Below the pieces are notes generated by a model that did not search any database, was not told the origin of the DNA, and saw nothing but the letters and a program-made list of their open reading frames with translations. Below, one piece after another: positions 34,473-53,263 of a stretch of 64,000 bases of DNA; within the stretch, counting starts at the first letter, position 1, and each line of letters begins with the position of its first letter. Origin of the DNA: a virus (Duplodnaviria > Caudoviricetes); IMG/VR virus record IMGVR_UViG_3300016472_000180, positions 1,525-65,524 of that record; one strand, 5' to 3'. The position numbers and the translations under genes are program-made.

Positions 34473-34487
34473 TCTATAGCCCCAACT
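34473..34487 (-). promoter_or_regulatory. Putative phage promoter facing the genome end (phiOR-like position)
   Basis: AGTTGGGGCTATAGA overlapping the stop of the 4311-aa gene. Confidence 0.6.
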
Positions 34488-37400
34488 ATTGGGATCTACC
34501 TAATAACCTAGTTAACAAAGGTGAAACTCCCTTAAGATCAATCTCAGATTCTTGCTTTATATCAGTCTTAAAACCTGGGGGAACTATAGGTACCTGTAAT
34601 GCTTTCTCTTTGACATAGTTCCTGTTGGTTGGTTCTTTGGGTGTATATGTTTCCATGCCATCTTTACCCAAACCAGGTGCTGTAGAACTACGGGGGGCAG
34701 AACCTGTGGGTGCAGAACCAAGGGGTATACCACTACGAGAACCACGACCACTACGGGACCTAGATGAATATGGATTGGGTTGTGTTTGAATACCATCCAA
34801 GATCCATTGCAATGCATTGGTTTCATCAATGTTTGCCCGTTCCTCTATGATTCTAGCTGGGATCATCAGTGGTGACTTGTTAATGAAATGTCCTGGGACT
34901 GCTAGAAGTTTTTGACCTGGGCTGGTAGATGGGTCATCATCAAACATTGCTTGGGGTACTTGTATGACCTTCCTTAATAAACTGAGAGTTGAGTTAGCAC
35001 CCACTATAGGAGAACCACCAATACCTGTTGATACCAAGGATTGTACTAACTGGTTTGGATTACTGGTTCCACCTGTAAAGTTGTGGACTGTTCTGACGGC
35101 TGCTTCCAACAGTGGTGTAAATGATCCCACCATTGGCAATCTTGTGGCAACTCTGATGATCATGCTTTCTGGGTCTGATTCCAATTCATTTAACATGTCT
35201 TCAATTTCACGACCACTAGCCCATTCTCGGAACAATCCAATCAATGTTTCTAACACAGCATAGAATACCAGTGTGCCAATCAATAGATTTGTGGTACCAC
35301 GGTTTGGGGCATTCAACATAACATCATCATAGAAAGATGACATGTAAGATGTAATTGCAGCCAACACTTTACCTTGTTCGGATCCCTCAAGTACACCCAT
35401 TGACCTGTTTAAACCATAGGATGCTGTAACTGATCGCTTTCGGATTCTTCGTTCAATACCTTCTTGGAAATCAACAATTGCTTTTTGGTAAACCTCTGGG
35501 TTAATTGGCGGGTTTGTCATGTTCCCCAAGTCACGGTATGCCAAATGCAATTCTCTGAAATCAATAACACCATCTAGTGCGTTGGCGTGGTTTAATCCCC
35601 AACTGATTGCATCCAAGTTGGTAATGCTGTCTAGACCGCTGGTTACTGCGTAGATTGCGTCGAACTCACTGAGTCCAGCTTCCCTTGCCAATCTCTTGTA
35701 TAACTTGGTAAGCTGTCTTTCTGCTTTCTCTGATCTCTCACTGGCTTTCAGCAATCGTTCCATCTCAGCTCTTATTGTTGGTTCTTCTCGTAGCTCTAAG
35801 AACTTTCTTATCTTACCACTTCGGATCATCTTCAACAACTTACGGTAATGTCTTGCCTTGGCATAGTACCGTGTCAGGTTGGTGTTATCTGTAACACCAC
35901 CAAGCAATACTGCGGTTTGTCCAAGCTTGGCTAAATTATCCGCAACCAAACCTGAGATACCACCGCTGATATTGGGTGTTTCCCAAATAGCTTTATATGG
36001 TTTAGACAAGTCCATATCAAAGTTTGCATCAGCAATGCCTTCGTTAAGGTGGGTGGTGTGTTCTTGATGCCAATCTTCTATACTGGTTGCAAGATCATCA
36101 ATTTGGAATCTGTGGTGTGAATCTCCTCTGGTGAGAACATTCAACAAATTAGATACCAACCTAAAGATACCAACTGGAATACTGAGTCCACCAGTTCTTA
36201 TTGAACTCTTGATAAACTCACCAACAGCTTCTGGTGACTGGGCTACACCATAAGCAATACCACCAGCCATGTTAATTACACCACGCAAACTTTTTGCTGC
36301 GTTTCTTGTTTGTCTGCTGCCAATACCGCTTCTTGGTATTGATCCATTGTATTCCGCATATTGCCACATCAACCGAGACATACCATCATAGACATCTTGT
36401 TTATGAAACACTTTGTCTTCTGGTTTTATGCTGTCGAACTCATCAATGTACCTCAGGATTCTTTCTTCCATCATCATTAAAAACTGCTTTGGACGCAAGC
36501 CTGTTTGTCCTGCCAGCTTATCAATTGTTTCTTGGAACAACAAATCAAATACACGGTATCTTACAAAGTTTTGGTATGCTGCATGTAGATCTGTTCTTGC
36601 AAGTTCAAACAACTCTGGATTCCCAAGTATTTCTGCTGTTGAGAAGTTCCTGATGGTGCTTTGGTAATTCTCGTAATGGTTGGTGTCAATATCAGGTCTA
36701 TCGTTTCTTGTTCCAGCTATTGTGCGTGCGTGTCGTCCACGCTTGGCTTTGTAATCCAACAGATCCCGTATCTCAACTTCAACCAAGGACAAACCAGAGA
36801 ATTCTTTCTTCCACTTATCCAGGACATGCTCGGAACTACCTGAAACTGTTTTGTAATACCTGTCTAAATCCGCCTTGGAAAGATCTTCGATTGTCTCTGG
36901 CACTCTATAGACATTAATAACATCACCTTTCTTAATGGTAAAGTATTTCTTACCCTTTATGCCAAAGTATTTATCTAACCCCGTTGGTGATGTCACAGTC
37001 GTGACAAACAGCTTTTCCAGTGTTTCGTTATCCAGATAAGTTGCTTCTGTTTCTACAAACTTTCGATTCTTGGTATAAAATGTTTTGACATCTTCAATAT
37101 CCAAGATACCCATAACAATCAAGGTGTTGATATCTAACATATCATCATTCAACTTGGATTGTGTTCTGGTTTCAACCAAGCTTCGTACCAACTTGGCATA
37201 CTTTTGGTTATCCATTAGAATGTCATTCAGTTTCTGCACAACGATCTGTATTGGCAAATACTCATCTGCTGGGACATCTTCACCATTCTTATCAACAACT
37301 TCTCGCCACCCAGTCTTTCTCTCTAGGTCCAAGATTACTTTGTTAATATGAATCATCTCTTCTCGGTATTTATTTAAGACCGCAGCAATATCATCTGCAT

Positions 37401-40400
37401 CAGCAATACCCAACAACTCTTGTATTTCCTTAGCTGTGGGAGATACCTTTTTTTGCCAAGCTTCAATCTGCAATCGTTGCAACTGTTTGACCTGACCATT
37501 TGTCAGTTTTAACTTGGTAATTTCAGATGCAAAGATTCTGTGTATCTTTGCAAGGTTGCTGACTAACATGATTGCTTCGGTCTTTGCTCTGTTTGCAGAC
37601 CGCAATGGTGTTGCCCCAGGTGCCACAAGCTGACCAACCATTGTCTTGGTATCATCAAACATGGCAGATAACAACCGCATTGATCTTTGCATTGATCGTG
37701 TTGTTGACCCTAGGCGCGTTTTAGATTGAATGAAATTAACAGACTTGGACATGAAAGTTCTCCAAATGTTTCTGTTGGATCTTTCACTGCCACCAAAGAT
37801 AAAACTGATAAAGTTGTTCTGCCTTAATAACATTGATGAGCTGTTGTTAAAAACATCCATAATGTTATCAAGCATTGTATTCAACGTCAGCTTCTCTTCT
37901 TCAGGAATTTCATCCACCTTCAGTTCTTTTGTTTTTGAGTTTTCAACCAGAGGCATTGGTTCTACTTGAGACTGGGCTGTTTGTTTCTGTCTTGCAACCT
38001 TTGCTTCTGTGGTTGGTGGGATGATTGGTTCTTTGTTTCGGTTATTGATAAAGTTTAATAACTCATTATCAACACCCTTGAGAGACATCTTACCATCTTT
38101 GATTGTAACATTATCTGGTATCAACGGTGGTGTAAACTTTTGGGTTTCCGTTGAAATATTTTGTGCAGCCTGTCTATAGATTTCCTTAAGGGTCTTTGGC
38201 TTGTAATACTGGAGACTGACCTTATTGGCGTCTTCCTCAGCCAGTAACTTGGTAACCTGTTTCCAGAAGTCTTGGACAATGTTTACATTGTTTGCAAACC
38301 GTGCTCTATTACGATGCATGATTGCCGAGTTAATGTCAACAAACTCCAAGAACATCTCCTTGAATGCATCTGGTATTCCAGACAGCATTGCATTCCTTGC
38401 CTTCTTATCCAACGACTTAAGGAACTTGGCAAGCAGGAACTTGAAAGACCCAGCATCTGTACCACCGTCCCTGAGGGATTCATTGCTTTCTGTTAAACCC
38501 ACCATAACCTGTTCTGCCTCAGTTGTCAGCGGCAGATCGGTTCCAGAACGATTATCGGACCCTTGGGTATCCTTGGGTCTTTTTGGCTGGACCGTTGTAT
38601 CGGGTTTAGCCAATGGTTCAATAACTGGGATATCCTTGTTGTTGGGACCCCGTTCCACCGTAACCCTGACACTTGGCTTTGCTGCCCTTGGTTTGGCTTC
38701 TGCAGCCTTTTGTTTTTTCGGGGGCTGAGGTATGGGCTTTTCCTCGGAAGCCTCAGGAGCGGCTTCAGGAGCCTTGGTTGGCTTGTCTACGGTTTTCTTA
38801 GGTCCAGCCACCTTGGCTGGTTCTGCCCGGGTGATGCCGCCGTAAGACCATTCGTATTCACTGAACAAGAACTTCATGGTTGTCTGTCCAGTTCTTGGAT
38901 CAACAACCCTGACGGCCTTGATATCAAGTTTCTTCATAAGATCCAGGAATCGACTAACGGCTTCCTTTTCCTTGCCATCTTTATACAACTGTTTGATAAA
39001 AACTAACAATGGATTAATATTGTCTTTGGTAAACTGGGGGTGTGATACTCCATTAAGAATTGTTTGGATTGTCTTAAGGGACGCAAAGAAGTAGTTACCA
39101 GCCATACCATCTGCATTGTGCCATGCTGCAGCCGAAGCCGTGGTCCATTCAACCTTGGTTTTTACACCAGAGCTGATGAATTGACCTTTTGAATTTCTTG
39201 GTCTACCGTCCATTGCGCTTTCGGCAACAGCTGGCTTAACGTGTGGTGTCAGTGGCGTTATTGGTTTATTTCTTCGATTAGCTACAACGGTTACTGGGCC
39301 AACGGTTTCTTCTGGTTTAATGATTGGAACTGTTGGCTCGGCTTCTGGTGGTGTTGACTCAATGGCTCTATCAATAGCATTGACTTCGTTTTGTTGTTCA
39401 ATAGACTCGGTGACTTGTTCTATGATTTCTTGTTTTGATGGTTTTGCTACAGCTTGTTTTGGTTCTTGTAATTTCTTCTGGTTTTCTATCAATGCTTTGA
39501 GAACAGCCATTAGATCCTTGTCATTGACATCTTCAATAGATTTTCCGTATTGTTTTTTAACAGCTGTTTCGATAATCCCACGGGATGAAACAACAACATC
39601 AGAGAAGGTATCTGAAATGTCTTTTGTATCAGCCAACTTAATTTTAAATTTGGCAGCTTCTTCCAGGATTTCATCTGTTGTTAAACCCTTGGCAAGGCTG
39701 GCAACAACAAACTTTCGTTTGTTCATAGTTGCTTTATTTTTACCATAAATTTCAAACCCAAGATCAGCAAGCTCAACTAACTGATTGGCTTTTTCTTTGC
39801 GGATTTCTAACAAAGGCAGTTCTTTTTCTTCTACATCAATTCTGGTAACAACCGTTTCGTCACCAAACTTTTCAGTCTGAGGTGAATAAACTTTTCTGTA
39901 TTCTTTTTCAAAACGCTGGAATAGTTGGGATTGGTTTTTCTTTTCATTGGCTAACCACGCTTCATCTGTTAAATCTGATGTTAACTTCTCGCCACGTTTA
40001 CCAAACAATGTATCTGTGACTTCCAGCGATTCGTTTTCTGCATCTATAAACTTTCGCCAATTTGATGCTGTTAATCCAGCAGATGATTTTCCAGTTAACT
40101 TTTTTTGTTCATCTAAGAACTTATTATAAGCTGCTTTGGCAATCCGAAGCCTGAGTTCTTTGCCTGTAGCAACATCCGTTCCATCTCTTTTCTTAAAGAA
40201 TATAAAACCCTTGTCAGTTGAAATATTACCAACAATCTCTGCAATATGGCTTTCAAGATTTTGGCTATATTTTTTATCAACAGAAAAATTGTTGATTATG
40301 ATTTTTTGGATACGTTTAATATATTGCCAAGGATTTTGTAAGACCTCATCAAGCAAATCTTCTTGCTCGGGTGTCAGTGGATCTTTTGATTCTGGTCGTT

Positions 40401-43400
40401 CCTGTTTAATTGTAATTGGGTCTGCAATTCCAGACTCGTAAGCCGAGGAAAACCGGATAACTCCATTATCACCAATCTGTAAGTCACCAGTATTCAGTCC
40501 ATATTGGATTTTGCTTCTAACTGTTTCCAAATCCCTGGTTCTAGTTTCTGGACTAAAGGTTAAACCCTCGGTCAGTTTATCAAACAAGGTTTTATCGGTT
40601 ATATCACGAAGCATTTTTTCTGCTTGTTCTACAGCTTTTGTGCTGGCTGCTGGTTTGGTAGCTTGTGGTCTTGGTTTGATCTTACCGCTTGCCACTGCTT
40701 TCCGATAGTCTGCCTCTAGTTCTGATTCTCTTTTGGGGGCATAGTATGCTCTAGCAGCTTTAGCAACAGTATTAATAGCTTTTCTTCGGTTTTCTGAGTT
40801 TGTTTTATGCGCTTTTGCTGCAAGTGGTGAAACTTGCAGCATTGCTGCAAGTTTTGAATCAGACGAAAGTAGTACGGTTTCATACGTTTCATACCTAAGT
40901 CCTACTTTTTGGAAAGCTGCTTCAAGTTCTGGTGTAAGACTTTTTTTTGGTAAAACCGCAGCTATAAAACTAGATAACGGAATTTTTTTTATTGGTTTGG
41001 CTTCAAAGTAATTTATTTTGCTGGTTTTAAGATCATCTAAATACTTAAAGACATTTTCAATAAATTCAAGTGGCACTGTTTCGGTGGCATAACCAAACTC
41101 ATTAAGTATTGTCTTAAAACGAACTATACTGTGTTCCTTTGGAAAACCGTACTTAAGTAAGACTTGGTGAAAAGGAAGGGGCTTTCCCAGGCTAGCCTCA
41201 TACCGTTCATAAAACGCTTCATCACCTATACCAAAGTTCAAATCAAAATTAGTAATGGGATGATAGTTGTCACTAGACTCTCTTAAGGCGTTTAGTGTGG
41301 CATCTAATTTAGCAAAATCTTCTAAATGTTCTTTGGTATCTGTTATTCTGGTTTTTGCTTCTGAACGCATTTCCTCAATAGAGGAGAATTGAGAAATTAA
41401 CAAGGATGCGAGTTGTTGGGAATTTAAATTGTCGTCATCTAAAAACACACCGATTCCCCGCTGTTGGTGGCCTTGCATATAATGGAACAGATTGTCGTCG
41501 TTCCAATCAACAAGCTTACCACTAGCATCTACAAACTGTGTACTAAAGAAAGGGGAAGTAGTCAGGAACAACCACTTGTAAAAATCTTTAGTATTTATCC
41601 CGTATGGTTGTAACAGGTTTTCAGCACCTCTGTTAGAAAGAGAAAAATTTTTAGTCTCAAGTTTTTTAGTTATTGTTTTCCAATCTGTATCAGAAATAGA
41701 AATACCGCTAATATATGCATATAACCTATACGTTTCTATATGTTGTTCTAACATGCGTATAAAAAACGGTTGATCTAAAAAATCATAAGAACCATCTTCT
41801 TTTTTAAGAACAGGAGAAGACCCTCCATCTGGAGGGGTTGCGTTAAGTACTTTATCTATCAGATTCTGTAAGTTATTACGCGAAGGTGTTGATGATGAGT
41901 AGTTTTTAAGAACCTTAAAGAACTTCTCTAGTTTTTCTAAAGCTTGTGGGTTTTTACTAGGTAACCAAGTTTGTATTTGTTCTGGTAACGTTACAGTATA
42001 TGCATCTCCGGAATAAACAGGAACTCCGGTTTCAGGATCTATGTGGCTTTTTGTTCCAATAAGAGTAATATCTCCAAAAGTAGCAGTGCTGCCTTTTTCG
42101 GCTGTTACTACACCCATGGATGGGGCTATTAGATCACCACCAGACTTAACCACTTTGAAAAATTGGCTAGAAGAGATGTTAGTGGTGGTTAGAAGAAGTG
42201 TACTATCGTCTGATTCTCTTTCGGGCGCACCCAGTAATCCATCAATATGACCCAAAGTTTCTGCAGTGTTTTGTACCAACCTAGGCGAATCATTGGGTAT
42301 AATTTTATTGCTGTAGATTGGCATCAGCTGTGTGCTGGGGTTAAACACCACATAATGACGAAGCTGTTGTTCTGGTGCTTTGGGATCAACTTGGTTGGGG
42401 AATGAGCGATAGGTCATATCCTCAACAATAATACCATCATAACCAAACTTCTTAAATATAAGAACATTTAACAAAGATTCTGGAATGTCCCCAGCAAGCA
42501 ACTCTGCCGCTTCGTTTTGTTCTGCCCAAAACTCATCAGGAAAATTCCACTCTTTGTCTTCGTATCGAAAGTTTATTCTAGCATCATCCTTTGAAAAATG
42601 TTTGCGCCACTGCCCAGGCCCAGCATCAAGATGCATGGCTAATTCTTGGTCTGTCTTTAAACCAAATTTTTCCATGTATTCTTTTTTCAGTTTCTTTGTT
42701 ATATCTTGCAACACAAACGGAGGTTCTTTACCTTCTTTTATTGGGTTAATAATAATTGGGTTTTCAATGTTGGCATAGTAATAATACGCATACTCACCAA
42801 CATTATAATTACTAACCCCAGAGTAGTCTACTAGATAGGTTTCTCCATCAGACTCTCTGTTTGTCAAGTATACGCCATAACCCAACATATCTGTATGTGG
42901 AAACAGTAAGGTTGCTTTAAGACTTACATTCCACTCGTAGGTGCCACCTGATTTTCTTTTAATTCTACGAGGAGTATAATGACCCATAACAACTAGCTTC
43001 CCAGTAACAGGATCTCTGGCCTGTGAATTAGCAAAAGCTTTTTCTGCTTGTGTTGTTGGGTTGTTGTTAATTTTTTCAATTATTTTCTTAAGCTTCTTTT
43101 GCTTGTTTAGAACAACAGCAGCCTCAGCAAATCCTTTGAACATGGTATAAATACTGCCAATGTTTTTTGATTCACTGTCAAACTCAAGTAACTCCAGTGT
43201 TCCGCCTGTTTTGTCTTGGTTTGGTTTGAACAAATAGTTATTGCTTGGGTTTGTTCCATGAACTTCTGGATTATACTTAACTGTGGTTACTTCGATTGTC
43301 TTAATCAGATCATTAAACTCAGGTGATTTAGCAACCAAATCAAACAAACTTATTTCAAGTGGAGTTAACAGAGTTTGTTCTTGTAAAGCAAGCACCTGTT

Positions 43401-46400
43401 CTCGCCTAGCTGCTTTTTCAGCTGGGACTTTTATTTTTTCCATCTCTTCCGTTTCGGGGTTATACACTTCTGCTGTTTCGGTGCCAATATAATTTTTTCT
43501 AAAGTTATTTAAATACTCTGTTAATTCATCTATTAACTGTAGACCAGTTAGACGCTTACCACGAACAGAGGCTCTTTTTAATTGTTCAATAAGAGTCAGG
43601 TCTTCCAAAGCTCTTACTGGAGCACCAAGCTTTGCCGCTGCTTTACCAAGACTGTAGCTGAAGAAATTACGCATCAACACATCTGGTGTTGAAAGCATAG
43701 TCTTTCTTTGCAATCTTGCATCCTTCTTTTTTTCTGTATCCAGATATTGGGATATATCAGCTGGACTAATTTCCGTTTCTGACCCAGACCGCTTAATTGG
43801 TGGATACCCGTTTTCTACCAAGGATTGGTTGTAGATGTCAATAACAGAACTAAAGTATTTTTTATTGATCTTCAAGTATCTTGACATTGTATCAATAAAC
43901 TCAGTGCGGTTTTTCTTTAAACTGAGTCCGTCAAGTTTGGTATTCAAGAATGCATCAACATGTATTGGTGTTACTTGCTCTGAGGAGGTGTACTCAACTA
44001 GGGCGGCTATTTCATCTTCTGTAAACAAATAGCTTATCTGCTTTTGTGACAGCGTTAGCTCGTCTTGTGTTGGTTGGAATATCCGTATAAGCTCTCGGTT
44101 AATTTTATCCTGCAGTTCTCGAGTGGTTAGGTATTCACGGTCACTCAGTAATCGCATAACAGTATCTTGATATACAATTCTAGAAATCAACAGTCCAGAG
44201 TTCTTATCAAGCAACGACAACATTTCCTTAACCGACTTGAATACCTGCTCTTCCTCAAGTACCTTACTTAGCTTTAACGAATCCAAAACATCCATCAAGG
44301 ATTGACCAATTGAAACAAACTTCTGCATTAACATCTTACGAACCAACCCTTGGTTTGGTGCTTGGTTAATAAAGGCAGCCAGTCTAACTTCGTCAATCAT
44401 CATAACAGAAAAAGCTTCGGCCATTAACTCTTGTGTATTACCGCCAAGATAGTATTTGTTTATCTGGTCTGTATCTAAAGTTTCTCGCAAAGAAACAATA
44501 AAGTCTGCTTCTGATGAGAACAGATTACGAATATTCATCAAAGAAGAACCATGACCAAACATCTCAAAGACATGTCCAATCTCATGCAATACATTTTTAA
44601 TTCTATTCATTTCTCCTGGTTTACCAAAGTATTCTCCAACGGTGACTTCTCCAGCTACTGGGTCAACCATAGACCGTTCTCCACCAACAAGCTTACTGAT
44701 TATGCTTGCAGCTCCAGAGTTCCAGTTCAGGTTAACCGTAGCTGCCAGGATAATACGAACATCGGCTTCGGTTAATCGACCAGATGCAACAAACTCTTGC
44801 ATCGTTTTGTAATAAGCTGTGATGTGTTCTTTGTTTCCCCTAGCTTCTTCAATAAAGGCTGCTGGGTTGGTTAAAACACCAGTGATTCGTTTCTGTTGGG
44901 CTGGACTGAGCTTTCTTGCCTTTCGTGAACCACGAAGAATTCTGCGTAGGGTTGTTTTACCTTCCCGACCAAACAACATTGCTTCAATCGTATCTTCAAT
45001 CTCTTTCTTAACCTTTGGATCATTCAGCTCTCTTTCAGTTCTAAGAGCCATGTCCTCTTTGGCTTCGGCGGTTGCCGCATCAACCCGCTCCTGTGTAACA
45101 TTTATTGTTGGTTTTTCTGGTGTAACCGCAGCTGTGGGGGTAACTGCAGCTGCGGGGGTAACCTCAGGTGTGGGGGTCACTGCGGGTGTAACTTCAGGTT
45201 TGGTTTCACTTACGGTTACCGGCTTCTTGTTATTCTTAACAGAATCAAATATAGCCTCAACGGTTTTTCTGGTAGATGATTGTGGTGTGATTGTTTCATC
45301 TAGTGGCTTGTTCAGTCTAACAGCGTTATCAACATCAGCCAAATCTTCGACTGACAAGGTAGCCCTCAGTTTTGCTTTTGTTTCATCAAACAACTGCAGC
45401 TTACCAGCCAAAACAGTAGCCGACTGCTTTACATCATCTGGTGCATCTATTTCACCTAAAACATCTTGCAGCTTCTTTTGAACAGCAGGCACATTCAGCT
45501 GTTCTAACAGGTGTACTTTTTGTTTTGTAGTCAGGCTGCTCCATGGACCCACGGTAGACAGGTTATCTAATACATCATTTAGGGATTTTATGGTCCCGCC
45601 TCTGATACCACGATCAATGAAATCAAGAAGCTCTTCACGACCACCACGATTATCTAGGCTAGGTTTAAGAGCTTTGTCAGCTTGCTTTGGTGTTGCAACA
45701 GCTTCAGCAGCATCAACAGCGTTTGCTGCGGTTCGTGAAGCATCGTTAATGTCTGACAGCTCTGGCTGTTTGCCCTTTGAGACTGCCGTGTGGATTGTTC
45801 CAGAGATTGGGTCTACATTTCTAAACAGTGTACCGTTGGTAAGTCGTTTAAAGTTGTTCAGTGTTATAGCAAATGGGTGTTGTTCCATTATTGCCATGGC
45901 TTTTTCTGGTGATAAAATCCCAGCCTTGGCCAACCTCTTTACCCTGGCGTTACGGAAGGCTGGGAAAGCAGAGGCTACGGATGACCCCAGTATGCTAAGT
46001 GAGCCACCAAAGATTGCTCCAGTAACGGCGGCATTACCAACCTCATCCCAATCAAAGGATGACTTCATTTCTGGGTTGTAATAGTACAGTGCGTTAGCCA
46101 AAGCTATGTTGTTCTGTTGTCCCATGTAGTTTTGTGCTGCGCCCCACCCAGCACCCACAGTAGCCGTAGCCAAGGCTCTCCTGACAACACCCCACTGCAT
46201 AGCAACTCTAGGTAGATCACCAGTCAAACCCCACTTAGCAAAACCCAAGGCTCGACGACCAAACCTGGCAATTCCTAAACCAGCTTTGGCTGCTCCAGCT
46301 GCTTGTGTAACACCGGCGGGTATTAAACTTATTCCAGCAGATATACCTAACTCAACACCAACTTCAGTTGCAAGATCAACACCACTACCAACCATGCCAT

Positions 46401-47421
46401 CCTTAAAGCTTAAGAAAAAGCCTTTGAATTTTTCCGTTGTGCTTGGAACATAGTCTGCTACTTGTTGTTGAATGTTTGAGCTATTCATGCGAGACATCAA
46501 CATCATTCTAGCGTGGGTTTCATTTCTAGCCCCACGGAACATGTCTTCTGTTACCCCATAATTCAATAGACCATCTTTTACATATGGGTCGCTTGCAATT
46601 TTGGTGTTAAACCACGCTATGTGATTAAATTTTGGATCAAATTTATCAACAGCAGCAACAATATCATTCATGGATGTGCTGGGTAAACCACCATGGGCAA
46701 CGTCGTAATACAACTTATACTCATCATCACTGATTATACCTAGAAAGTGCATAGTATCAGCTGCATTGTCTGAAACTGATTTTATTAACTCAGGTGTATC
46801 AAAAAGGTTCCTCCATACACCAAGACCCCCAGCTATTGCTTTACCAATAACACCCTGGGATCTATAGAAATTTTCTGCAGACATTTCAATTGGTTTTTGT
46901 TCAAAGCCATTCAATCTGGCTTGAATATATGTAACCACTTCTGATTGCTTTTTGAATGCCTTTAGATTTTCTGGGTCTGTAAGATCAGTCTTGGCCAAAA
47001 TATCTAGTTGTGTTTTTTGGTTTATCAGGTTGGTGTCGTTAATGTCTTCTTCATTAACAATAATCTCGTTAAATGTTGGCAATCCAATCATTTGTCTAAT
47101 TAAAGGTGCTTGACTTGGATCCACACCACCACTAATAAGCGTGTTGTTAACAACCTCATTATTTAATAGAGCCAAGGCTTGTGTTTGTGATCTTACTTGG
47201 GGTTCTGTTAATGGTTGTCTTTTTGGTAAAATATCCCAGTTAGACCGGTCTGAAATACCTGATGGGTCCAGCAATATACCCTCGGTTGAACCTTGGGATG
47301 GTTGCATGTAAGTCGAAGAAAGGTACTTGTTGTAAAACGGTAGTTGTTTTGGTGGCTCGTTTGGTGTTGGATTTAGATTATAGAAATTCTTTTGTTCGTC
47401 GTTAAAGAAAATATTTTCCAT
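34486..47421 (-). CDS. Giant internal virion (ejection) protein, gp16-like position, with polyvalent-protein domains
   Basis: 4311 aa; follows gp14/gp15-like genes; no Cys noticed on reading; HEIGH zincin motif; ART-like motifs. Confidence 0.8.
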   Translation of the reverse strand: MENIFFNDEQKNFYNLNPTPNEPPKQLPFYNKYLSSTYMQPSQGSTEGILLDPSGISDRSNWDILPKRQPLTEPQVRSQTQALALLNNEVVNNTLISGGVDPSQAPLIRQMIGLPTFNEIIVNEEDINDTNLINQKTQLDILAKTDLTDPENLKAFKKQSEVVTYIQARLNGFEQKPIEMSAENFYRSQGVIGKAIAGGLGVWRNLFDTPELIKSVSDNAADTMHFLGIISDDEYKLYYDVAHGGLPSTSMNDIVAAVDKFDPKFNHIAWFNTKIASDPYVKDGLLNYGVTEDMFRGARNETHARMMLMSRMNSSNIQQQVADYVPSTTEKFKGFFLSFKDGMVGSGVDLATEVGVELGISAGISLIPAGVTQAAGAAKAGLGIARFGRRALGFAKWGLTGDLPRVAMQWGVVRRALATATVGAGWGAAQNYMGQQNNIALANALYYYNPEMKSSFDWDEVGNAAVTGAIFGGSLSILGSSVASAFPAFRNARVKRLAKAGILSPEKAMAIMEQHPFAITLNNFKRLTNGTLFRNVDPISGTIHTAVSKGKQPELSDINDASRTAANAVDAAEAVATPKQADKALKPSLDNRGGREELLDFIDRGIRGGTIKSLNDVLDNLSTVGPWSSLTTKQKVHLLEQLNVPAVQKKLQDVLGEIDAPDDVKQSATVLAGKLQLFDETKAKLRATLSVEDLADVDNAVRLNKPLDETITPQSSTRKTVEAIFDSVKNNKKPVTVSETKPEVTPAVTPTPEVTPAAAVTPTAAVTPEKPTINVTQERVDAATAEAKEDMALRTERELNDPKVKKEIEDTIEAMLFGREGKTTLRRILRGSRKARKLSPAQQKRITGVLTNPAAFIEEARGNKEHITAYYKTMQEFVASGRLTEADVRIILAATVNLNWNSGAASIISKLVGGERSMVDPVAGEVTVGEYFGKPGEMNRIKNVLHEIGHVFEMFGHGSSLMNIRNLFSSEADFIVSLRETLDTDQINKYYLGGNTQELMAEAFSVMMIDEVRLAAFINQAPNQGLVRKMLMQKFVSIGQSLMDVLDSLKLSKVLEEEQVFKSVKEMLSLLDKNSGLLISRIVYQDTVMRLLSDREYLTTRELQDKINRELIRIFQPTQDELTLSQKQISYLFTEDEIAALVEYTSSEQVTPIHVDAFLNTKLDGLSLKKNRTEFIDTMSRYLKINKKYFSSVIDIYNQSLVENGYPPIKRSGSETEISPADISQYLDTEKKKDARLQRKTMLSTPDVLMRNFFSYSLGKAAAKLGAPVRALEDLTLIEQLKRASVRGKRLTGLQLIDELTEYLNNFRKNYIGTETAEVYNPETEEMEKIKVPAEKAARREQVLALQEQTLLTPLEISLFDLVAKSPEFNDLIKTIEVTTVKYNPEVHGTNPSNNYLFKPNQDKTGGTLELLEFDSESKNIGSIYTMFKGFAEAAVVLNKQKKLKKIIEKINNNPTTQAEKAFANSQARDPVTGKLVVMGHYTPRRIKRKSGGTYEWNVSLKATLLFPHTDMLGYGVYLTNRESDGETYLVDYSGVSNYNVGEYAYYYYANIENPIIINPIKEGKEPPFVLQDITKKLKKEYMEKFGLKTDQELAMHLDAGPGQWRKHFSKDDARINFRYEDKEWNFPDEFWAEQNEAAELLAGDIPESLLNVLIFKKFGYDGIIVEDMTYRSFPNQVDPKAPEQQLRHYVVFNPSTQLMPIYSNKIIPNDSPRLVQNTAETLGHIDGLLGAPERESDDSTLLLTTTNISSSQFFKVVKSGGDLIAPSMGVVTAEKGSTATFGDITLIGTKSHIDPETGVPVYSGDAYTVTLPEQIQTWLPSKNPQALEKLEKFFKVLKNYSSSTPSRNNLQNLIDKVLNATPPDGGSSPVLKKEDGSYDFLDQPFFIRMLEQHIETYRLYAYISGISISDTDWKTITKKLETKNFSLSNRGAENLLQPYGINTKDFYKWLFLTTSPFFSTQFVDASGKLVDWNDDNLFHYMQGHQQRGIGVFLDDDNLNSQQLASLLISQFSSIEEMRSEAKTRITDTKEHLEDFAKLDATLNALRESSDNYHPITNFDLNFGIGDEAFYERYEASLGKPLPFHQVLLKYGFPKEHSIVRFKTILNEFGYATETVPLEFIENVFKYLDDLKTSKINYFEAKPIKKIPLSSFIAAVLPKKSLTPELEAAFQKVGLRYETYETVLLSSDSKLAAMLQVSPLAAKAHKTNSENRRKAINTVAKAARAYYAPKRESELEADYRKAVASGKIKPRPQATKPAASTKAVEQAEKMLRDITDKTLFDKLTEGLTFSPETRTRDLETVRSKIQYGLNTGDLQIGDNGVIRFSSAYESGIADPITIKQERPESKDPLTPEQEDLLDEVLQNPWQYIKRIQKIIINNFSVDKKYSQNLESHIAEIVGNISTDKGFIFFKKRDGTDVATGKELRLRIAKAAYNKFLDEQKKLTGKSSAGLTASNWRKFIDAENESLEVTDTLFGKRGEKLTSDLTDEAWLANEKKNQSQLFQRFEKEYRKVYSPQTEKFGDETVVTRIDVEEKELPLLEIRKEKANQLVELADLGFEIYGKNKATMNKRKFVVASLAKGLTTDEILEEAAKFKIKLADTKDISDTFSDVVVSSRGIIETAVKKQYGKSIEDVNDKDLMAVLKALIENQKKLQEPKQAVAKPSKQEIIEQVTESIEQQNEVNAIDRAIESTPPEAEPTVPIIKPEETVGPVTVVANRRNKPITPLTPHVKPAVAESAMDGRPRNSKGQFISSGVKTKVEWTTASAAAWHNADGMAGNYFFASLKTIQTILNGVSHPQFTKDNINPLLVFIKQLYKDGKEKEAVSRFLDLMKKLDIKAVRVVDPRTGQTTMKFLFSEYEWSYGGITRAEPAKVAGPKKTVDKPTKAPEAAPEASEEKPIPQPPKKQKAAEAKPRAAKPSVRVTVERGPNNKDIPVIEPLAKPDTTVQPKRPKDTQGSDNRSGTDLPLTTEAEQVMVGLTESNESLRDGGTDAGSFKFLLAKFLKSLDKKARNAMLSGIPDAFKEMFLEFVDINSAIMHRNRARFANNVNIVQDFWKQVTKLLAEEDANKVSLQYYKPKTLKEIYRQAAQNISTETQKFTPPLIPDNVTIKDGKMSLKGVDNELLNFINNRNKEPIIPPTTEAKVARQKQTAQSQVEPMPLVENSKTKELKVDEIPEEEKLTLNTMLDNIMDVFNNSSSMLLRQNNFISFIFGGSERSNRNIWRTFMSKSVNFIQSKTRLGSTTRSMQRSMRLLSAMFDDTKTMVGQLVAPGATPLRSANRAKTEAIMLVSNLAKIHRIFASEITKLKLTNGQVKQLQRLQIEAWQKKVSPTAKEIQELLGIADADDIAAVLNKYREEMIHINKVILDLERKTGWREVVDKNGEDVPADEYLPIQIVVQKLNDILMDNQKYAKLVRSLVETRTQSKLNDDMLDINTLIVMGILDIEDVKTFYTKNRKFVETEATYLDNETLEKLFVTTVTSPTGLDKYFGIKGKKYFTIKKGDVINVYRVPETIEDLSKADLDRYYKTVSGSSEHVLDKWKKEFSGLSLVEVEIRDLLDYKAKRGRHARTIAGTRNDRPDIDTNHYENYQSTIRNFSTAEILGNPELFELARTDLHAAYQNFVRYRVFDLLFQETIDKLAGQTGLRPKQFLMMMEERILRYIDEFDSIKPEDKVFHKQDVYDGMSRLMWQYAEYNGSIPRSGIGSRQTRNAAKSLRGVINMAGGIAYGVAQSPEAVGEFIKSSIRTGGLSIPVGIFRLVSNLLNVLTRGDSHHRFQIDDLATSIEDWHQEHTTHLNEGIADANFDMDLSKPYKAIWETPNISGGISGLVADNLAKLGQTAVLLGGVTDNTNLTRYYAKARHYRKLLKMIRSGKIRKFLELREEPTIRAEMERLLKASERSEKAERQLTKLYKRLAREAGLSEFDAIYAVTSGLDSITNLDAISWGLNHANALDGVIDFRELHLAYRDLGNMTNPPINPEVYQKAIVDFQEGIERRIRKRSVTASYGLNRSMGVLEGSEQGKVLAAITSYMSSFYDDVMLNAPNRGTTNLLIGTLVFYAVLETLIGLFREWASGREIEDMLNELESDPESMIIRVATRLPMVGSFTPLLEAAVRTVHNFTGGTSNPNQLVQSLVSTGIGGSPIVGANSTLSLLRKVIQVPQAMFDDDPSTSPGQKLLAVPGHFINKSPLMIPARIIEERANIDETNALQWILDGIQTQPNPYSSRSRSGRGSRSGIPLGSAPTGSAPRSSTAPGLGKDGMETYTPKEPTNRNYVKEKALQVPIVPPGFKTDIKQESEIDLKGVSPLLTRLLGRSQ

Positions 47422-47430: not shown

Positions 47431-50400
47431 TTATTTACTGCTGGACCAAAGTTCAGCTTCTGCTTTTCTTCGTTTTATCAAGCCATTTAGTTTTTTACCA
47501 CCTGATTTATTATAAAGACTGAGGGCTTGTGGTACTTTGTTGAATGTACTGACCTTGGACAAAGCGGCTGATATTGTTTCAAACCCAGGTTTGTTATAGA
47601 AGTTTTCACCAACATTATATGCAAATGAGATTATGGCTGATTGTTGGTTGGGACTCATTTCTGTCCATGTCGGAATTGTTTTACTCAGGGTTGGGATTAT
47701 TTTGGTGTCAATATAGGCCTGGGCAAACTGGGTGGCTTGTTCTTCTGTGATTGTATCACCCTGTTTAACTTTAGAGCCGTTTGGATACTTGGTTGTACCT
47801 TTACCAATAGTCCAAACCCGACCAGTATTATCCCAATATGCTGTGGTTTTTAACCCCTCATACTCAGAAATAAGTTTCATGTGTGGTTTATCGGATACAG
47901 TTCCTGGGGATACTGGGGTGTTTGTATTGGGTGTATCTGAAAGGAAGCCCAACCTTTTTAGTTCAGAATCAATAATCTTGTTTAATATCTTTTTCTCATC
48001 TGTAGTTAAGTCCATGTTCTTCAGTTTCAGGAACATGGCTTTGGTTTCTTCACTTAGTTTGGGTAAAACAAACTCTTTATCTAAACCCAAATCAACATCT
48101 TCAAATCCAAAAAACTGTTTGACATATCTTACGGTATCATTAGCAGCTATATCTTTAGATAACTTTTCTGGAACAGTTAAGATTTCTCTGAATTTTTCTT
48201 TACTGGCCAATGTCATCCAACCCGTTTCGTTTCGTCGGTACGAGTTTAAATCAAACTTGTCTGGGTCTTTACCAAGATATTGTAAAATAATTCCTTGGTA
48301 TTTTTTTTGCTTACCGTGCTCTTCTATTACTGCATTCAGCCTGTTTGCGTTTTCCTGTTGATAATCAGGAGGAAGATCGCCAAATGCATATTGGGGTGCC
48401 AAATCCACACCACGCATCATACTAACTCCACGCGAATCCAGTTGTTCATTATACCACAACAAATCAAACCTGTTTTCATCTATGGATTCATCTTCTTTAA
48501 AAGCATAAAGATTACCACTGCCTTTTTCGGTATAAAAACTGTAGCCTTGGTCAGCAAGTTCCTTGGCTGCGGTTGGCTCTAATCCATAGGGTGCTAGACC
48601 TTTGTTTACACCCCCATTAAGAATGGATGGGTAACCGGTAAAAATGGGATAGTTTGCTTTGTTGCCAAAATCTGTGAATCCTTCTGTTTGACCCATTGGG
48701 TAACCATGAACAAATTCCTGGTTTGATTCAAATGCTTCTGTTAAGGTAAACATAATAGACAGATAATCTGTGAACTTGGTATAACCAAGCTCTTTACCAA
48801 CAGCCATTGCTTTATTCAGAACATCTCTTGAAAATACTACTGAGTCTTGGTCTACATCTCCATAATCTGCATTTAGTCTGAACAAAGCACTGCGGGTTGG
48901 ATCTTCGTTAAACACAGCATGATCCTTGGCTATCATCTCTTTTATAACACCTTTATTATGCAGTTCTTTGTAGTATGTTATAAAGTCTTGTAGGTTGTTT
49001 ATTTCTTTGTTTGGTATAGGAGCAACGTATTCATTACCAGCAAAGTACGTTTCAAACCCACCCCTTCTGTCTTCTGTTGACCCGAGCCAATCAGTATCAC
49101 GCCAGAACCTAGGGTCTTTAAATGGCGAGTAATTAGCATTACTGGAAGGAAACCCAGAAGAACCACGAATTGTCAGATCTGGGTTTTCTATTCTACCAGT
49201 CTGTTTGCCAGAATACTCAATTTCAATAAGTTTCTTAAGTCTGTTTTGTATTTCTGATTGAACCATATCCCTACCCATAAGGACTGGTGTTTGACTGGTT
49301 CCACGTCTTGGTATATAAACACCGCCGACCAATTGGTTTTTTGAATAAAGATTGTTTAAAAGGTTTTGGGTTTTTCCATTTTTATCTATATATGGAATAT
49401 TAGTAATACCTATTGTAATACCACCACCAGCTTTTGCCATAGTATCTGGATCACCATAGTCTAACCGTAGACCCCAGTGTTGAGCACCGGTAATTGAACC
49501 AAACGCTTTGGCGGCATATTCTACTTGTTGTTCCATACCCAGTGTACCAGGATCTACACCATCTTGCATAATTCCAAGAGCTACCCAAGTTCTTGGGTTT
49601 ATTGCATATGCCATTTGTAATAAAACAGCATCGGTTGGTATGTTTCTTTTAACACGTTGATTTGTTTTTTTTAAATTATCCTTATCATTTCCAAATGTTC
49701 CATCGAAGTTAAATCGTTGTGATTCGTGAACAACATCAAGCATTATATTAGCTAGGTCTGGATTAGAATTAGGAGAAAGTGTTTTAATAAATGAATGTGC
49801 TCCCTCTCTTGTTGTAATACCCGACGCGTCGTTTGAATCAGTTACAAGAATATTAGCAACACCGTTTGAACCTTTACTTAACAGTTCTTTTCTTACTTCT
49901 TCTCTTGCAGCTTCTGGTATTCCACTTGTTATATAATTGTTTTCCTTAGCTACACCAGTATAGTCGCCCACTAATGTTGTTGAGGATGGTGCTACATAAA
50001 ACTTACCATGCTCTGGTACCCAAATCAAACCAGCACTGCTAAGTTCTGGTTTTAAAAAAGATTCTTCTAATGCTGTATTTATTTTATCAATGTTTTTTGA
50101 GTCTTTTAAATCTAGGTTGGCCAGATGTGGTTGTTGATTGACAAACAAGAATGCACGCATCATTATCATCTTTAATTCTGGGTTGTCTTGTATAAGTTGA
50201 GCCATGTTTTTATTTGGCTCTCCTGATGTATCTCTTATAATACCAGACGCAGATGTAACTACATAATCATCAAGCTTACCTTTTCCTGAAAGCATGTCAA
50301 TTACCTTATTATTGACAGTAAACATCACCGCTTGTTCTTGGGGTGAACCACTTTCTGTATAGATATCTGATGTGCTGGTTACTGGTTGTTGTTTGTACCT

Positions 50401-52616: not shown

Positions 52617-52624
52617 ATTATACC

Positions 52625-53263
52625 TTACTTTTTGTATTCTAGTTCTGCTTGGTAACCCGCAGCAACTCCACTAATACCAGCTGCAATCAAACCTGTGGTT
52701 AATGCTGAGGATGATGTATCTGCAATTCCACCAGTTGTTGGCAGGAACACCGCTTGCTCTTGGAAGCTGAATTGGCGTTGACCAAGCTGTTGGCTTTGTC
52801 TCTTTTCGATGTCCTTATAGGCTTGCCTATAGTTTGCCTTTAGGGCAATCATGTTTGCGGTGATGTTTGACATGTTCTGCCTAAGTAATGCTCTGGCGGT
52901 ACCAGAGCTTGATCCAATACTGCGAGAACTGAGAGTCCCAAGAAACTGGGCATTGGTTGCAGATGTTTGCTTACTCAGGGTTCCCTTTTGGTTTTGGAAT
53001 GATTTATCCAAGTACAGTTCTTGTAATGCCCGATCAACATTAGCACCCTTTTCAATCAACAGGTTTCTTTCCAAGTTGGCTTGGAATGCTCGCATCTGGT
53101 TCCGTTGGTTGGCTTCAAACTGCCACTTGTTTCTAAAGTTTGCTTGTTGTTGTTGTAACTCTACTGCTTTGGCTTGAGCACTGGCTTGGGATGATGCTCC
53201 AAAGGCACTGAAGATACCTTGGGCTAAAGCTAACCCACCTAAAACTAAGGCTTCACCTACCAT
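52625..53263 (-). CDS. Internal virion protein B (gp14-like)
   Basis: Gly/Ala-rich ends, Q-rich coiled coil, SIGSSSGTARALL. Confidence 0.75.
   Translation of the reverse strand: MVGEALVLGGLALAQGIFSAFGASSQASAQAKAVELQQQQANFRNKWQFEANQRNQMRAFQANLERNLLIEKGANVDRALQELYLDKSFQNQKGTLSKQTSATNAQFLGTLSSRSIGSSSGTARALLRQNMSNITANMIALKANYRQAYKDIEKRQSQQLGQRQFSFQEQAVFLPTTGGIADTSSSALTTGLIAAGISGVAAGYQAELEYKK

What the first reader, a model, noticed from the sequence alone, without database searches (positions are those of the whole stretch)
34486..47421. 4311-aa ejection protein, more than three times the size of T7 gp16
It follows the gp14- and gp15-like genes, appears Cys-free and has a gp16-like helical C-terminus. 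It is interrupted by several enzyme-like domains and Pro/Thr/Ala linkers (TPEVTPAVTPTPEVTPAAAVTPTAAVTP). This matches the large polyvalent protein concept: a virion-delivered multi-enzyme cargo injected with the DNA to counter host defences. How a protein of this size is packaged and ejected from a T7-type head is unclear; autoproteolysis is possible.
Basis: partly seen in the sequence, partly recalled or inferred. Interest (0 to 1): 0.8.

Follow-up and report, generated by a model that had tools for sequence, protein, structure and literature searches.

The report
Giant cargo-carrying phage ejection protein
An uncultured T7-like phage encodes a 4311-residue, cysteine-free protein whose tail end looks like the T7 gp16 injection protein and whose front carries a protease-like, an ADP-ribosyltransferase-like and an RNase domain, so it is most likely an injected multi-enzyme cargo protein, a kind already described in N4-like and other short-tailed phages.

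Summary
An uninterrupted 4311-aa ORF lies on the minus strand at 34486-47421. It has no cysteine and contains the quoted Pro/Thr/Ala linker. The genome is a complete 65.5-kb T7-like phage. The gene ends a cysteine-free block (212, 348, 1380 and 4311 aa) placed after the large terminase.

- **C-terminal module.** HMMER finds about 40 metagenomic relatives, mostly 3100-4160 aa, that share the C-terminal ~1300 aa. An AlphaFold model of this module (pLDDT 72) matches predicted "internal virion protein D" structures (Foldseek, best E 2e-8). Its best solved matches are the PhiM1, E1004 and T7 gp16-type ejection proteins (Z 7.9 to 6.0).
- **Cargo.** A PBECR5 RNase domain scores above Pfam's cut-off. 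An ART-PolyVal-like domain is supported by profile-profile comparison (94%). A zincin HExxH...E motif is invariant across the family. About two thirds of the middle region has no counterpart in relatives.

Not shown: presence in virions, ejection, processing or enzyme activity.

The principle is published: gp16 homologues carry passenger domains (Hardies 2016, N4 vRNAP) and phages encode polyvalent proteins (Iyer 2017). I file this as a new variant of a known kind, the largest in its family. Another first-stage note on this window had already flagged the ART-like stretch.

The parts
34486..47421 (-). Giant gene, 4311 aa, no cysteine
45922..46404 (-). Residues 340-500: Gly/Ala-rich hydrophobic stretch (peaks 354-372 and 464-482) inside the family-conserved N-terminal module (about residues 250-1050); possibly membrane-active
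   Evidence: hydropathy; conservation across giants
45118..45198 (-).
44272..44964 (-). Residues about 820-1050: zincin-like metallopeptidase domain, H946-E947-x-x-H950 and E998
   Evidence: H, E, H and the downstream E are invariant in 13 giants and present in 29 of 31 aligned sequences; weak Pfam ATLF hit, E 0.003, below cut-off; PF18818 finds nothing
42307..43041 (-). Residues 1461-1705: ART-PolyVal-like ADP-ribosyltransferase domain with H1481, Y1518, D1662 and an insertion of roughly 90 aa
   Evidence: hhalign 94.2%, E 1.2e-7, against Pfam-positive ART-PolyVal domains of P0029 and P0045; BLASTP E 1.5e-9 to the G002 giant, whose region scores PF18760 E 1.1e-6; G001 giant scores PF18760 at 45.7 bits; ESM atlas top hits are ART-PolyVal clusters at 0.90; the Pfam HMM itself finds nothing in the query
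41848..42189 (-). Residues 1745-1858: PBECR5 (phage Barnase-EndoU-ColicinE5/D-RelE-like RNase) domain; N-terminal half of the profile matched
   Evidence: PF18814: E 1.4e-10, 41.9 bits against cut-off 25; six-frame search E 3.7e-12; absent from the G001 and G002 giants
34732..38508 (-). Residues about 2972-4230: family-conserved C-terminal module with a gp16 / internal virion protein D / tetrameric-ejection-protein hub-like fold
35230..35286 (-). Residues 4046-4064: strongest hydrophobic helix (mean Kyte-Doolittle 2.14), in the stretch best conserved in distant relatives
34489..34530 (-). Residues 4298-4311: extreme C-terminal motif GVSxxLGxLL, nearly invariant in the family
   Evidence: consensus and near-invariant columns
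47431..51573 (-). 1380-aa cysteine-free protein with a C-terminal phage lysozyme domain (residues 1237-1372): candidate gp15 / IVP-C / octameric ejection protein
   Evidence: PF00959 E 6.8e-24; 0 Cys; fastest-diverging gene of the block, 24% identity to G001; unrelated to the giant's C-module by hhalign, 0.1%
51570..52616 (-). 348-aa cysteine-free protein of the same block; no family match
52625..53263 (-). 212-aa cysteine-free protein with an N-terminal hydrophobic helix (5-23): candidate gp14-like small ejection protein
53269..54957 (-). T7-type large terminase directly upstream of the block (context)

Best explanation
The gene encodes the gp16-type (internal virion protein D, tetrameric ejection protein) component of this T7-like phage's ejectosome, enlarged by about 2900 residues of passenger domains.

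Shown:
- It is the last gene of a cysteine-free block (212, 348, 1380 aa with a lysozyme domain, then 4311 aa) that follows the terminase, in this phage and in two relatives.
- Its C-terminal ~1300 aa form a conserved family module. The predicted fold of that module matches gp16-type hub proteins.
- Its N-terminal ~1050 aa form a second conserved module with hydrophobic Gly/Ala-rich segments and an invariant zincin HExxH...E motif.
- The ~1800 aa between them are variable. In this phage they hold an ART-PolyVal-like domain and a PBECR5 RNase domain, separated by low-complexity linkers.

Inferred:
- A few copies (about 4, by analogy with T7 gp16 and N4 vRNAP) are built into the core above the portal through the hub module.
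- At infection the protein is threaded unfolded through the tail. The lack of cysteine fits this, as in T7 gp15/gp16 and N4 gp50-52.
- The hub and the hydrophobic segments help to form the inner-membrane end of the DNA conduit, and the passenger domains reach the cytoplasm before any phage gene is expressed.
- There the ART would ADP-ribosylate host proteins and the RNase would cut host RNA, to shut off the host or disarm defences.
- The zincin may cut the linkers to free the domains, or trim the protein in the head.
For: - Genome: a complete 65,524-bp T7-like phage with a single-subunit RNAP, T7-type TerL, portal, scaffold, capsid and tail tube A and B.
- Synteny: TerL, small proteins, a 1.4-1.7-kaa lysozyme protein and then the giant are conserved in G001 and G002, whose TerL is 80% identical.
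- Family: 55 HMMER hits, about 30 of them giants of 3100-4160 aa matched over their C-terminal ~1200 aa and nearly Cys-free.
- Fold: AF2 model pLDDT 72. BFVD gives 60 hits at E<=1e-3, best 2e-8, named internal virion protein D or core protein. In the PDB, 8vb2_A is first of 48,161 chains at Z 7.9 with 305 residues aligned, followed by 9vvp_O (Z 6.2) and T7 gp16 7eyb_I (Z 6.0).
- Cys-free: the giant and its three upstream neighbours here, T7 gp15 and gp16, and N4 gp50, gp51 and gp52.
- Cargo: PBECR5, ART-like domain, zincin motif.
- Published principle: IVP-D homologues carry passenger domains for the cytoplasm, such as N4 gp50 and H66 gp60, and IVP-C homologues often carry lysozymes and diverge fastest (PMC4819975). 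Polyvalent proteins combine MPTase, ART and PBECR domains next to virion genes (PMC5512222).
Against: - There are no virion proteomics, so packaging and ejection are inferred.
- No sequence or profile similarity to T7 gp15/gp16 or N4 gp50/gp51 was found, and no PHROG or PDB sequence hit.
- The PDB Z-scores (6-8) lie in the range that helical proteins can reach by chance. The case rests on which proteins rank first and on the BFVD hits, which are themselves predicted models.
- The Pfam ART-PolyVal and MPTase-PolyVal HMMs find nothing in the query. The ART strand-1 motif reads H-Y-T rather than H-G-T/S.
- PBECR5 is matched over only half of its profile, and its catalytic residues were not checked.
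- About 1500 residues have no assignment.
- The block lies after TerL, not after tail tube B as in T7.
Confidence: 0.75

Rival explanations
1. It is a packaged core protein, but the 'enzyme' domains are inactive relics or spacers. The protein would act only as a structural hub or DNA-spooling core and conduit, and nothing enzymatic would be delivered.
For: The ART region fails the Pfam HMM. It has H-Y-T where bona fide members have H-G-T/S, and a ~90-aa insertion. PBECR5 is matched over profile positions 18-127 of 239 only. PF18818 finds nothing.
Against: The zincin H, E, H and downstream E are invariant across 13 giants that share only 19-37% identity. H1481, Y1518 and D1662 line up with the H-Y-D triad described for polyvalent ARTs (PMC5512222). 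PBECR5 scores 17 bits above its cut-off.
Confidence: 0.12
2. It is a late-expressed cytoplasmic polyvalent protein that is not packaged, for example one acting against superinfecting phages or late host defences. It would merely have borrowed a helical module resembling gp16.
For: There is no proteomic evidence. The block is not in the T7 position, since it follows TerL. Iyer et al. note that polyvalent proteins may also act against competing elements (PMC5512222).
Against: No other gp16-sized candidate stands out in the genome: the gene map shows no other large helical protein, and the 1380-aa protein is unrelated to the hub module. All four proteins of the block lack cysteine, as do the ejection proteins of T7 and N4. 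The lysozyme-bearing neighbour fits an ejectosome (PMC11440229).
Confidence: 0.08
3. The 1380-aa lysozyme protein is the true gp16 equivalent, and the giant is an extra, fourth ejected protein: a dedicated effector carrier riding on a duplicated hub.
For: Some BFVD matches to the hub model are ~1400-aa proteins annotated as lysozyme (ranks 4 and 42). So gp16-type proteins with lysozyme domains of this size exist.
Against: hhalign finds no relation between the 1380-aa family and the giant's hub module, 0.1%. The 1380-aa protein diverges fastest and carries its lysozyme at the C-terminus, as in phiKMV gp36 and the PhiM1 octameric protein (PMC4819975; PMC11440229).
Confidence: 0.05

Closest known systems
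T7 gp16 (internal virion protein D; PDB 7EYB, 7K5C) and the PhiM1 tetrameric ejection protein (PDB 8VB2)
   Same: It is the last and largest gene of the ejection-protein block. It is cysteine-free and mostly helical. Model residues 208-996 (giant 3217-4005) superpose on residues ~540-1220 of these chains.
   Different: It is 3.3 times longer. No sequence similarity is detectable. It has no transglycosylase or endolysin domain of its own; the lysozyme sits on the 1380-aa neighbour. It has a ~2900-aa N-terminal extension with cargo. The block is placed after TerL.
N4 gp50 virion RNA polymerase (3500 aa), an IVP-D homologue with an embedded passenger (PMC4819975; PMC13434306)
   Same: [quoted passage not shown] It is encoded after two smaller ejection proteins and has zero cysteines.
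   Different: The cargo here is a protease, an ART and an RNase, not an RNA polymerase. No RNAP match was found in the giant, and the phage encodes a separate T7-like RNAP. No sequence or profile similarity to gp50 was found.
Phage-type polyvalent proteins of Iyer et al. 2017 (PMC5512222), for example Roseovarius Plymouth podovirus 1 CBX87992.1 (ART plus N4-like RNAP), P1 DdrB/DarB and MuF-PBECR fusions
   Same: Several conflict-type domains (zincin MPTase, ART with an H-Y-D triad, PBECR RNase) sit in one polypeptide next to virion genes.
   Different: Only PBECR5 reaches a Pfam cut-off. None of the LPD, helicase, methylase or MuF domains typical of that set was detected. Here the anchor is a T7-type hub, and the paper does not mention gp16 or internal virion proteins.
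Pseudomonas phage H66 gp60 (F116 group): a very large IVP-D homologue with a methylase-like domain (PMC4819975)
   Same: An IVP-D homologue enlarged by a domain that must act inside the cell.
   Different: The cargo and the phage group differ. It was not compared directly here.
T4 Alt, a packaged and injected ADP-ribosyltransferase
   Same: The proposed role of the ART domain: modifying host proteins at the moment of infection.
   Different: Alt is a separate ~70-kDa head protein of a myovirus and belongs to a different ART clade (PMC5512222).

Membership tests
gp16 / internal virion protein D / tetrameric ejection protein of T7-like podoviruses | Largest and last gene of the block of ejection-protein genes, after small (gp14-like) and medium (gp15-like) ones | tested here: met
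   The order 212, 348, 1380 and 4311 aa is conserved in G001 and G002. However, the block follows TerL rather than tail tube B.
gp16 / internal virion protein D / tetrameric ejection protein of T7-like podoviruses | Helical hub fold like the solved gp16-type chains | tested here: met
   BFVD Foldseek best E 2e-8, with 60 hits at <=1e-3 named IVP-D or core protein. In the PDB, 8vb2_A scores Z 7.9 (rmsd 5.4, 305 aligned), 9vvp_O Z 6.2 and 7eyb_I Z 6.0; these are the top three, and 8vb2_A is first of 48,161 chains. The Z-scores are moderate.
gp16 / internal virion protein D / tetrameric ejection protein of T7-like podoviruses | Sequence or profile similarity to T7 gp16 | tested here: inconclusive
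   phmmer, hmmsearch and hhalign found nothing significant. The family is known to diverge beyond sequence recognition (PMC4819975).
gp16 / internal virion protein D / tetrameric ejection protein of T7-like podoviruses | Present in the virion core at about 4 copies and ejected at infection | not testable with these tools
   This is an uncultured phage and no proteomics exist.
Polyvalent proteins (Iyer et al. 2017) | Two or more distinct conflict-type domains in one polypeptide, drawn from the polyvalent inventory | tested here: met
   PBECR5 is above its cut-off. The zincin HExxH...E motif is invariant. The ART-PolyVal-like domain is supported by hhalign at 94%.
Polyvalent proteins (Iyer et al. 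2017) | Encoded among virion or packaging genes of a portal-terminase phage | tested here: met
ART-PolyVal (PF18760) | Match to the family HMM above the gathering score | tested here: not met
   No match at E<=10 in the query. The score is met in the G001 giant (45.7 bits), P0029 and P0045, and nearly met in G002 (29.9 against 31.2).
ART-PolyVal (PF18760) | H (strand 1), Y (strand 2) and D (strand 5) triad and overall profile similarity | tested here: met
   H1481, Y1518 and D1662 align with Pfam-positive members. hhalign gives 94.2%, E 1.2e-7, over 190 columns.
PBECR5 (PF18814) | Match above the gathering score | tested here: met
   41.9 bits against 25, but only profile positions 18-127 of 239.
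PBECR5 (PF18814) | [quoted passage not shown] | not tested
   The tools printed no residue-level alignment to the profile, and the C-terminal half of the profile is unmatched.
Zincin metallopeptidase (MPTase of polyvalent proteins, PF18818) | HExxH plus a downstream Glu ligand | tested here: met
   H946, E947, H950 and E998; the equivalent columns are invariant in 13 giants.
Zincin metallopeptidase (MPTase of polyvalent proteins, PF18818) | Match to the PF18818 HMM | tested here: not met
   No match at E<=10. There are only weak ATLF hits (E 0.003) and, in P0029, weak Peptidase_M78 and DUF4344 hits.
N4-type virion RNA polymerase | Single-subunit RNAP domain inside the giant | tested here: not met
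   No RNAP family was found in whole-protein or tiled Pfam and PHROG scans. The phage's RNAP is a separate 825-aa gene.

The most novel reading that the evidence does not exclude
This may be a modular effector-delivery platform in T7-like phages. A conserved N-terminal membrane/zincin module and a conserved gp16-type hub would bracket a cargo cassette that is gained, lost and swapped between related phages: ART in all three close relatives, PBECR5 only here, and middle regions of 290 to about 2050 aa across the family. After ejection the zincin would cut the low-complexity linkers. Each virion would then release a few copies of an ADP-ribosyltransferase and an RNase into the cell ahead of the DNA. 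That would be a phage counterpart of polymorphic toxin systems, and the T7-lineage counterpart of N4's vRNAP delivery.
Probability: 0.3. Interest if true: 0.75.

Novelty: new variant of a known kind. Interest (0 to 1): 0.55.

Why it matters
Injected proteins act before any phage gene is read, so they decide whether an infection survives the host's first defences. For T7-like phages the ejectosome is usually seen as a conduit with a cell-wall enzyme. This family suggests that the gp16 position can also carry a changing set of enzymes: a protease, an ADP-ribosyltransferase and an RNase.

At 4311 residues it would be a larger delivered protein than N4's 3500-residue polymerase, whose passage through a 30-45 A tail is itself an open structural question (PMC13434306).

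The family comprises about 40 clusters, seen here only in metagenomic sequence collections. It has no detectable relative among 50,697 deposited phage genomes and matches no Pfam or PHROG family outside the PBECR5 domain. It therefore offers new ART and RNase variants to test as host-takeover or counter-defence effectors.

The general principle is already published, so this extends known biology and is not a new kind of system.

Tried and rejected
- **Whole-protein scans.** Pfam, PHROG and NCBIfam gave nothing usable. The whole-protein Pfam scan even missed PBECR5, which appeared only with 280-500-aa tiles.
- **Deposited phages and PDB.** tblastn of both halves against 50,697 phage genomes gave no match. 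PDB sequence and profile searches gave nothing.
- **Word-indexed protein searches.** All three found only the protein itself, fragments, and one 74%-identical C-terminal piece.
- **Single-protein locus scans of IMG/VR.** Nothing. Alignment A1 was too diverse to seed a scan.
- **AF2 of residues 790-1989 without an alignment.** pLDDT 33, unusable. The ART, PBECR5 and zincin folds were therefore not checked by structure.
- **PF18760 and PF18818 HMMs on the genome.** No match.
- **PHROG scans.** Nothing for the distant 1600-1900-aa relatives. Tiles of the giant gave only weak rows: phrog_342 'internal virion protein with endolysin domain' at E 0.0066 on residues 455-570, and a 3513-position PHROG at E 0.005 on the PBECR5 region.
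- **ESM atlas on residues 2270-2720.** Only unnamed viral clusters at 0.82.
- **Comparisons with T7 gp13-17, N4 gp50/51 and a MedDCM podovirus** by phmmer, hmmsearch and hhalign: not significant.
- **Internal repeats in the giant.** None.
- **Terminator downstream of the giant's stop.** None in the 176-nt gap.
The genomic contexts of the other ~30 giants and of the truncated variant P0007 could not be examined.
- **Fusion artefact.** Rejected, because independent contigs carry the same or homologous uninterrupted ORFs.

Full report
**1. The observation**

The ORF listing gives one ORF at 34486..47421 on the minus strand: ATG start, 4311 aa (translation).
- An AAGGA ribosome-binding site lies about 7 nt upstream. 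The gene begins 9 nt after the stop of the preceding 1380-aa gene.
- The protein has no cysteine. The other long minus-strand ORFs of the window have 1.3% Cys, which gives P about 3e-25 for none in 4311 residues.
- The quoted linker is at residues 742-768; the residue before it is K, not T.
- The ratio to T7 gp16 (1318 aa) is 3.27.
- The identical protein is on record as a cluster of 8 sequences on 2 contigs, and homologous uninterrupted ORFs occur on independent contigs. It is therefore not an assembly fusion.

**2. The genome**

The window is bases 1525-65524 of a 65,524-bp IMG/VR virus record with terminal repeats, rated complete. All genes are on the minus strand.

PHROG and Pfam scans identify a T7-like single-subunit RNA polymerase, primase-helicase, DNA polymerase, ribonucleotide reductase, portal, scaffold, major capsid protein, tail tube A and B, several tail spikes and a T7-type large terminase. 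The terminase is at most 39% identical to those of deposited phages, the nearest being marine and freshwater Autographiviridae.

After the terminase come ORFs of 212, 348, 1380 and 4311 aa, and after these the early region. In T7 the equivalent block (gp13-16) follows tail tube B, so here it has moved behind the terminase.

**3. The block looks like an ejection-protein operon**

- All four proteins lack cysteine, 6251 residues in all. T7 gp15 and gp16 have none, and neither do N4 gp50 (3500 aa), gp51 and gp52.
- The 212-aa protein has an N-terminal hydrophobic helix.
- The 1380-aa protein ends in a phage lysozyme domain, PF00959, E 6.8e-24. The same is reported for the gp15-position proteins of phiKMV-like phages and for the octameric ejection protein of PhiM1 (PMC4819975, PMC11440229).
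- Two IMG/VR relatives have the same order after the terminase: 159, 231, 353 and 1733 or 1702 aa, then a giant of 3631 or 3888 aa. Their terminase is 80% identical to this one, and G001's RNAP is 77% identical.
- In G001, a linear contig rated 90% complete, the RNAP is at 8 kb and the giant ends 813 bp before the contig end. This suggests that the block sits at the right end of the genome.
- Identity to G001 falls in this order: terminase 80%, 212-aa 78%, 348-aa 56%, giant 36-45%, non-lysozyme part of the 1380-aa protein 24%. Hardies et al. give exceptionally fast divergence as a hallmark of IVP-C (gp15).

None of these proteins shows sequence or profile similarity to T7 gp13-16 or N4 gp50/51. 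The literature treats that as normal for these proteins. The labels gp14-like and gp15-like therefore rest on position and features only.

**4. A family of giants**

Word-indexed searches found only the protein itself, fragments, and one 74%-identical C-terminal piece. tblastn found nothing in 50,697 phage genomes.

A full HMMER search with residues 3010-4209 against 1.84 billion representatives found 55 proteins, 40 of them at E<=1e-30. About 30 are 3100-4160 aa long and match at their C-terminal ~1200 aa. They carry 0-6 cysteines each. The query is the longest.

Mapping the whole query on them shows three zones:
- a conserved N-terminal module, about 250-1050;
- a middle (about 1100-2900) that most members do not share with the query;
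- a conserved C-terminal module, about 2900-4230.

The closest relatives match 21-1209 and from 2313 or 2446 onward. Middle regions range from 290 to about 2050 aa. Only 34% of the query's middle is matched by any other member at E<1e-5, although within some sub-clades the middles are shared.

**5. The C-terminal module**

AlphaFold2 with the 44-sequence alignment gave pLDDT 72 and pTM 0.69, a mostly helical model.
- Foldseek against BFVD gave 60 matches at E<=1e-3, best 2e-8, aligned over more than 1000 columns. Nearly all named hits are 'internal virion protein (D)', 'internal core protein' or 'protein inside capsid D' of Autographiviridae (LIMElight, LKA1, Acibel007, phiKT, RSB3, JG068, BB8). 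Several are 'large polyvalent protein associated domain-containing' proteins of uncultured phages.
- In the PDB, Foldseek's first hit is 8vb2_A, the C4 ejectosome of PhiM1 (E 0.022, probability 0.82).
- VIA-align ranks 8vb2_A first (Z 7.9, rmsd 5.4, 305 residues), then 9vvp_O (E1004 core, Z 6.2) and 7eyb_I (Z 6.0), ahead of fumarases at 4.8.
- 7eyb_I is T7 gp16, and the E1004 protein Gp29 is its homologue.
- An independent scan of 48,161 representative chains again puts 8vb2_A first, two Z units above the next.

Model residues 208-996 (giant 3217-4005) align with residues ~540-1220 of these chains, that is the hub after the inserted lytic domains. The Z-scores alone are in the range helical proteins can reach by chance. 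The argument is that the top three solved matches are all gp16-type proteins and that the viral library agrees.

**6. The passenger region**

- *PBECR5.* Residues 1745-1858 match PF18814 at E 1.4e-10, 41.9 bits against a cut-off of 25. A six-frame search confirms this at E 3.7e-12. The domain is absent from the G001 and G002 giants. Only profile positions 18-127 of 239 are matched.
- *ART.* A separate first-stage note proposed an ART-PolyVal domain at residues ~1464-1710. The Pfam HMM finds nothing there. Four other lines support it:
  - The ESM atlas's nearest clusters for residues 1440-2010 are all ART-PolyVal, at 0.90, a weak lead.
  - Family members P0029 and P0045 have clear PF18760 domains (1e-19 and 1.8e-14). 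The G001 giant has one above the cut-off at the same relative position (45.7 bits), and G002 nearly so (29.9 against 31.2).
  - The query's 1391-1695 matches G002's 1387-1714 by BLASTP at E 1.5e-9.
  - A profile of the query, G002 and P0011 regions aligns to a profile of P0029 and P0045 with hhalign probability 94.2%, E 1.2e-7, over 190 columns. H1481, Y1518 and D1662 fall on the H-Y-D positions that Iyer et al. describe (PMC5512222).

  I call it ART-PolyVal-like. Activity is uncertain: the motif reads H-Y-T, and there is a ~90-aa insertion shared with P0011.
- *Zincin.* HEIGH is at 946-950 and E998 lies in an N-x-x-E motif. The equivalent H, E, H and E are invariant in 13 giants that are only 19-37% identical, and are present in 29 of 31 aligned sequences. 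Pfam gives only sub-threshold hits: ATLF at E 0.003, and Peptidase_M78 and DUF4344 in P0029. PF18818 gives none.
- *Unassigned.* Residues 1-250, 1100-1440, 1860-2200, 2313-2700 and 2780-2860 have no assignment. Low-complexity linkers separate the blocks.

**7. Mechanism**

*Shown:* the gene position, the family architecture, the hub-like fold, the cargo domains and the cysteine-free composition.

*Inferred from T7, PhiM1 and N4* (PMC13434306, PMC11440229, PMC4819975):
- A few copies are assembled on the portal through the hub.
- They leave the head unfolded through the tail and help to build the inner end of the trans-envelope conduit.
- They bring the passenger domains into the cytoplasm.

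The roles proposed for the ART (host protein modification, as for T4 Alt), the RNase and the zincin (release of domains at the linkers, or trimming in the head, both suggested by Iyer et al.) are hypotheses.

The packaging puzzle has a precedent. N4 holds 4+/-1 copies of a 3500-residue protein and is thought to eject it unfolded (PMC13434306). A 65.5-kb genome also implies a head larger than T7's (inference).

**8. Comparison and novelty**

Hardies et al. [quoted passage not shown] Iyer et al. 2017 define polyvalent proteins with MPTase, ART and PBECR domains next to virion genes. The kind is therefore known.

What is new here:
- a sizeable family in T7-like phages that encode their own RNAP, with the hub anchored to a conserved zincin/hydrophobic N-module and a changeable cargo;
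- a family detected only in metagenomic sequence collections, with no relative among the deposited phage genomes searched;
- the query as its largest member, with a PBECR5 insertion that its closest relatives lack.

No paper in the library contains both 'internal virion protein' and 'polyvalent protein'. Iyer et al. do not mention gp16 or internal virion proteins. A recent preprint reports an ejectosome protein that inhibits CBASS (10.1101/2025.07.23.666291, seen, not read).

I rate it a new variant of a known kind. 'New member' would be the conservative alternative.

**9. Limits**

There are no proteomic or expression data. Only one of four ~1200-aa stretches could be modelled with an alignment.

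Noticed in passing
window 34330-34470: The 176-nt gap just past the giant's stop holds five to six copies, in both orientations, of a TTAACCTAAGGT-like 12-mer (exact at 34357-34368 and 34378-34389). The window has 16 matches at up to 2 mismatches against 6.4 expected. With G001's contig ending 813 bp past its giant, this may mark the right genome end or concatemer junction, as with T7's short repeats.
   Followed up: partly
window 47431-54957; L008 and L009: The ejection-protein block lies after the large terminase rather than between tail tube B and the tail fibre as in T7. The same order is found in the two relatives.
   Followed up: partly
L002 (T7) and L013 (N4): T7 gp15 and gp16, and N4 gp50 (3500 aa), gp51 and gp52, contain no cysteine at all. 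Absence of cysteine may be a usable mark of podovirus ejection proteins.
   Followed up: partly
window 34489-34530 (residues 4298-4311): The extreme C-terminus GVSxxLGxLL is nearly invariant in the family although it follows a low-complexity Ser/Arg/Gly tail. It may be an assembly or docking signal.
   Followed up: no
protein P0007 (132 aa, ENA contig of 4823 bp): It is 99% identical to giant residues ~2545-2655 and then diverges into a short Cys-containing tail. It is probably a frameshifted or mis-assembled variant.
   Followed up: no
window 45862-46071 (giant residues ~455-520): Two weak, independent hints place this hydrophobic part of the N-module opposite T7 gp16 residues ~380-450: phrog_342 at E 0.0066 and the family HMM against T7 gp16 at iE 0.024. 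If real, the cargo is inserted within a gp16-type scaffold rather than added to its N-terminus.
   Followed up: no
window 56000-62000: The two tail-spike genes (862 and 882 aa) lie in a GC-rich island, 0.49-0.56 against about 0.41 elsewhere. This suggests recently acquired receptor-binding modules. It is the subject of another first-stage note.
   Followed up: no
protein P0011 residues 154-213: A relative of the giant carries a PcfJ-like domain (PF14284, E 1.1e-5) at its N-terminus in place of the usual N-terminal region. This is another sign of module exchange with conjugative-element proteins.
   Followed up: no
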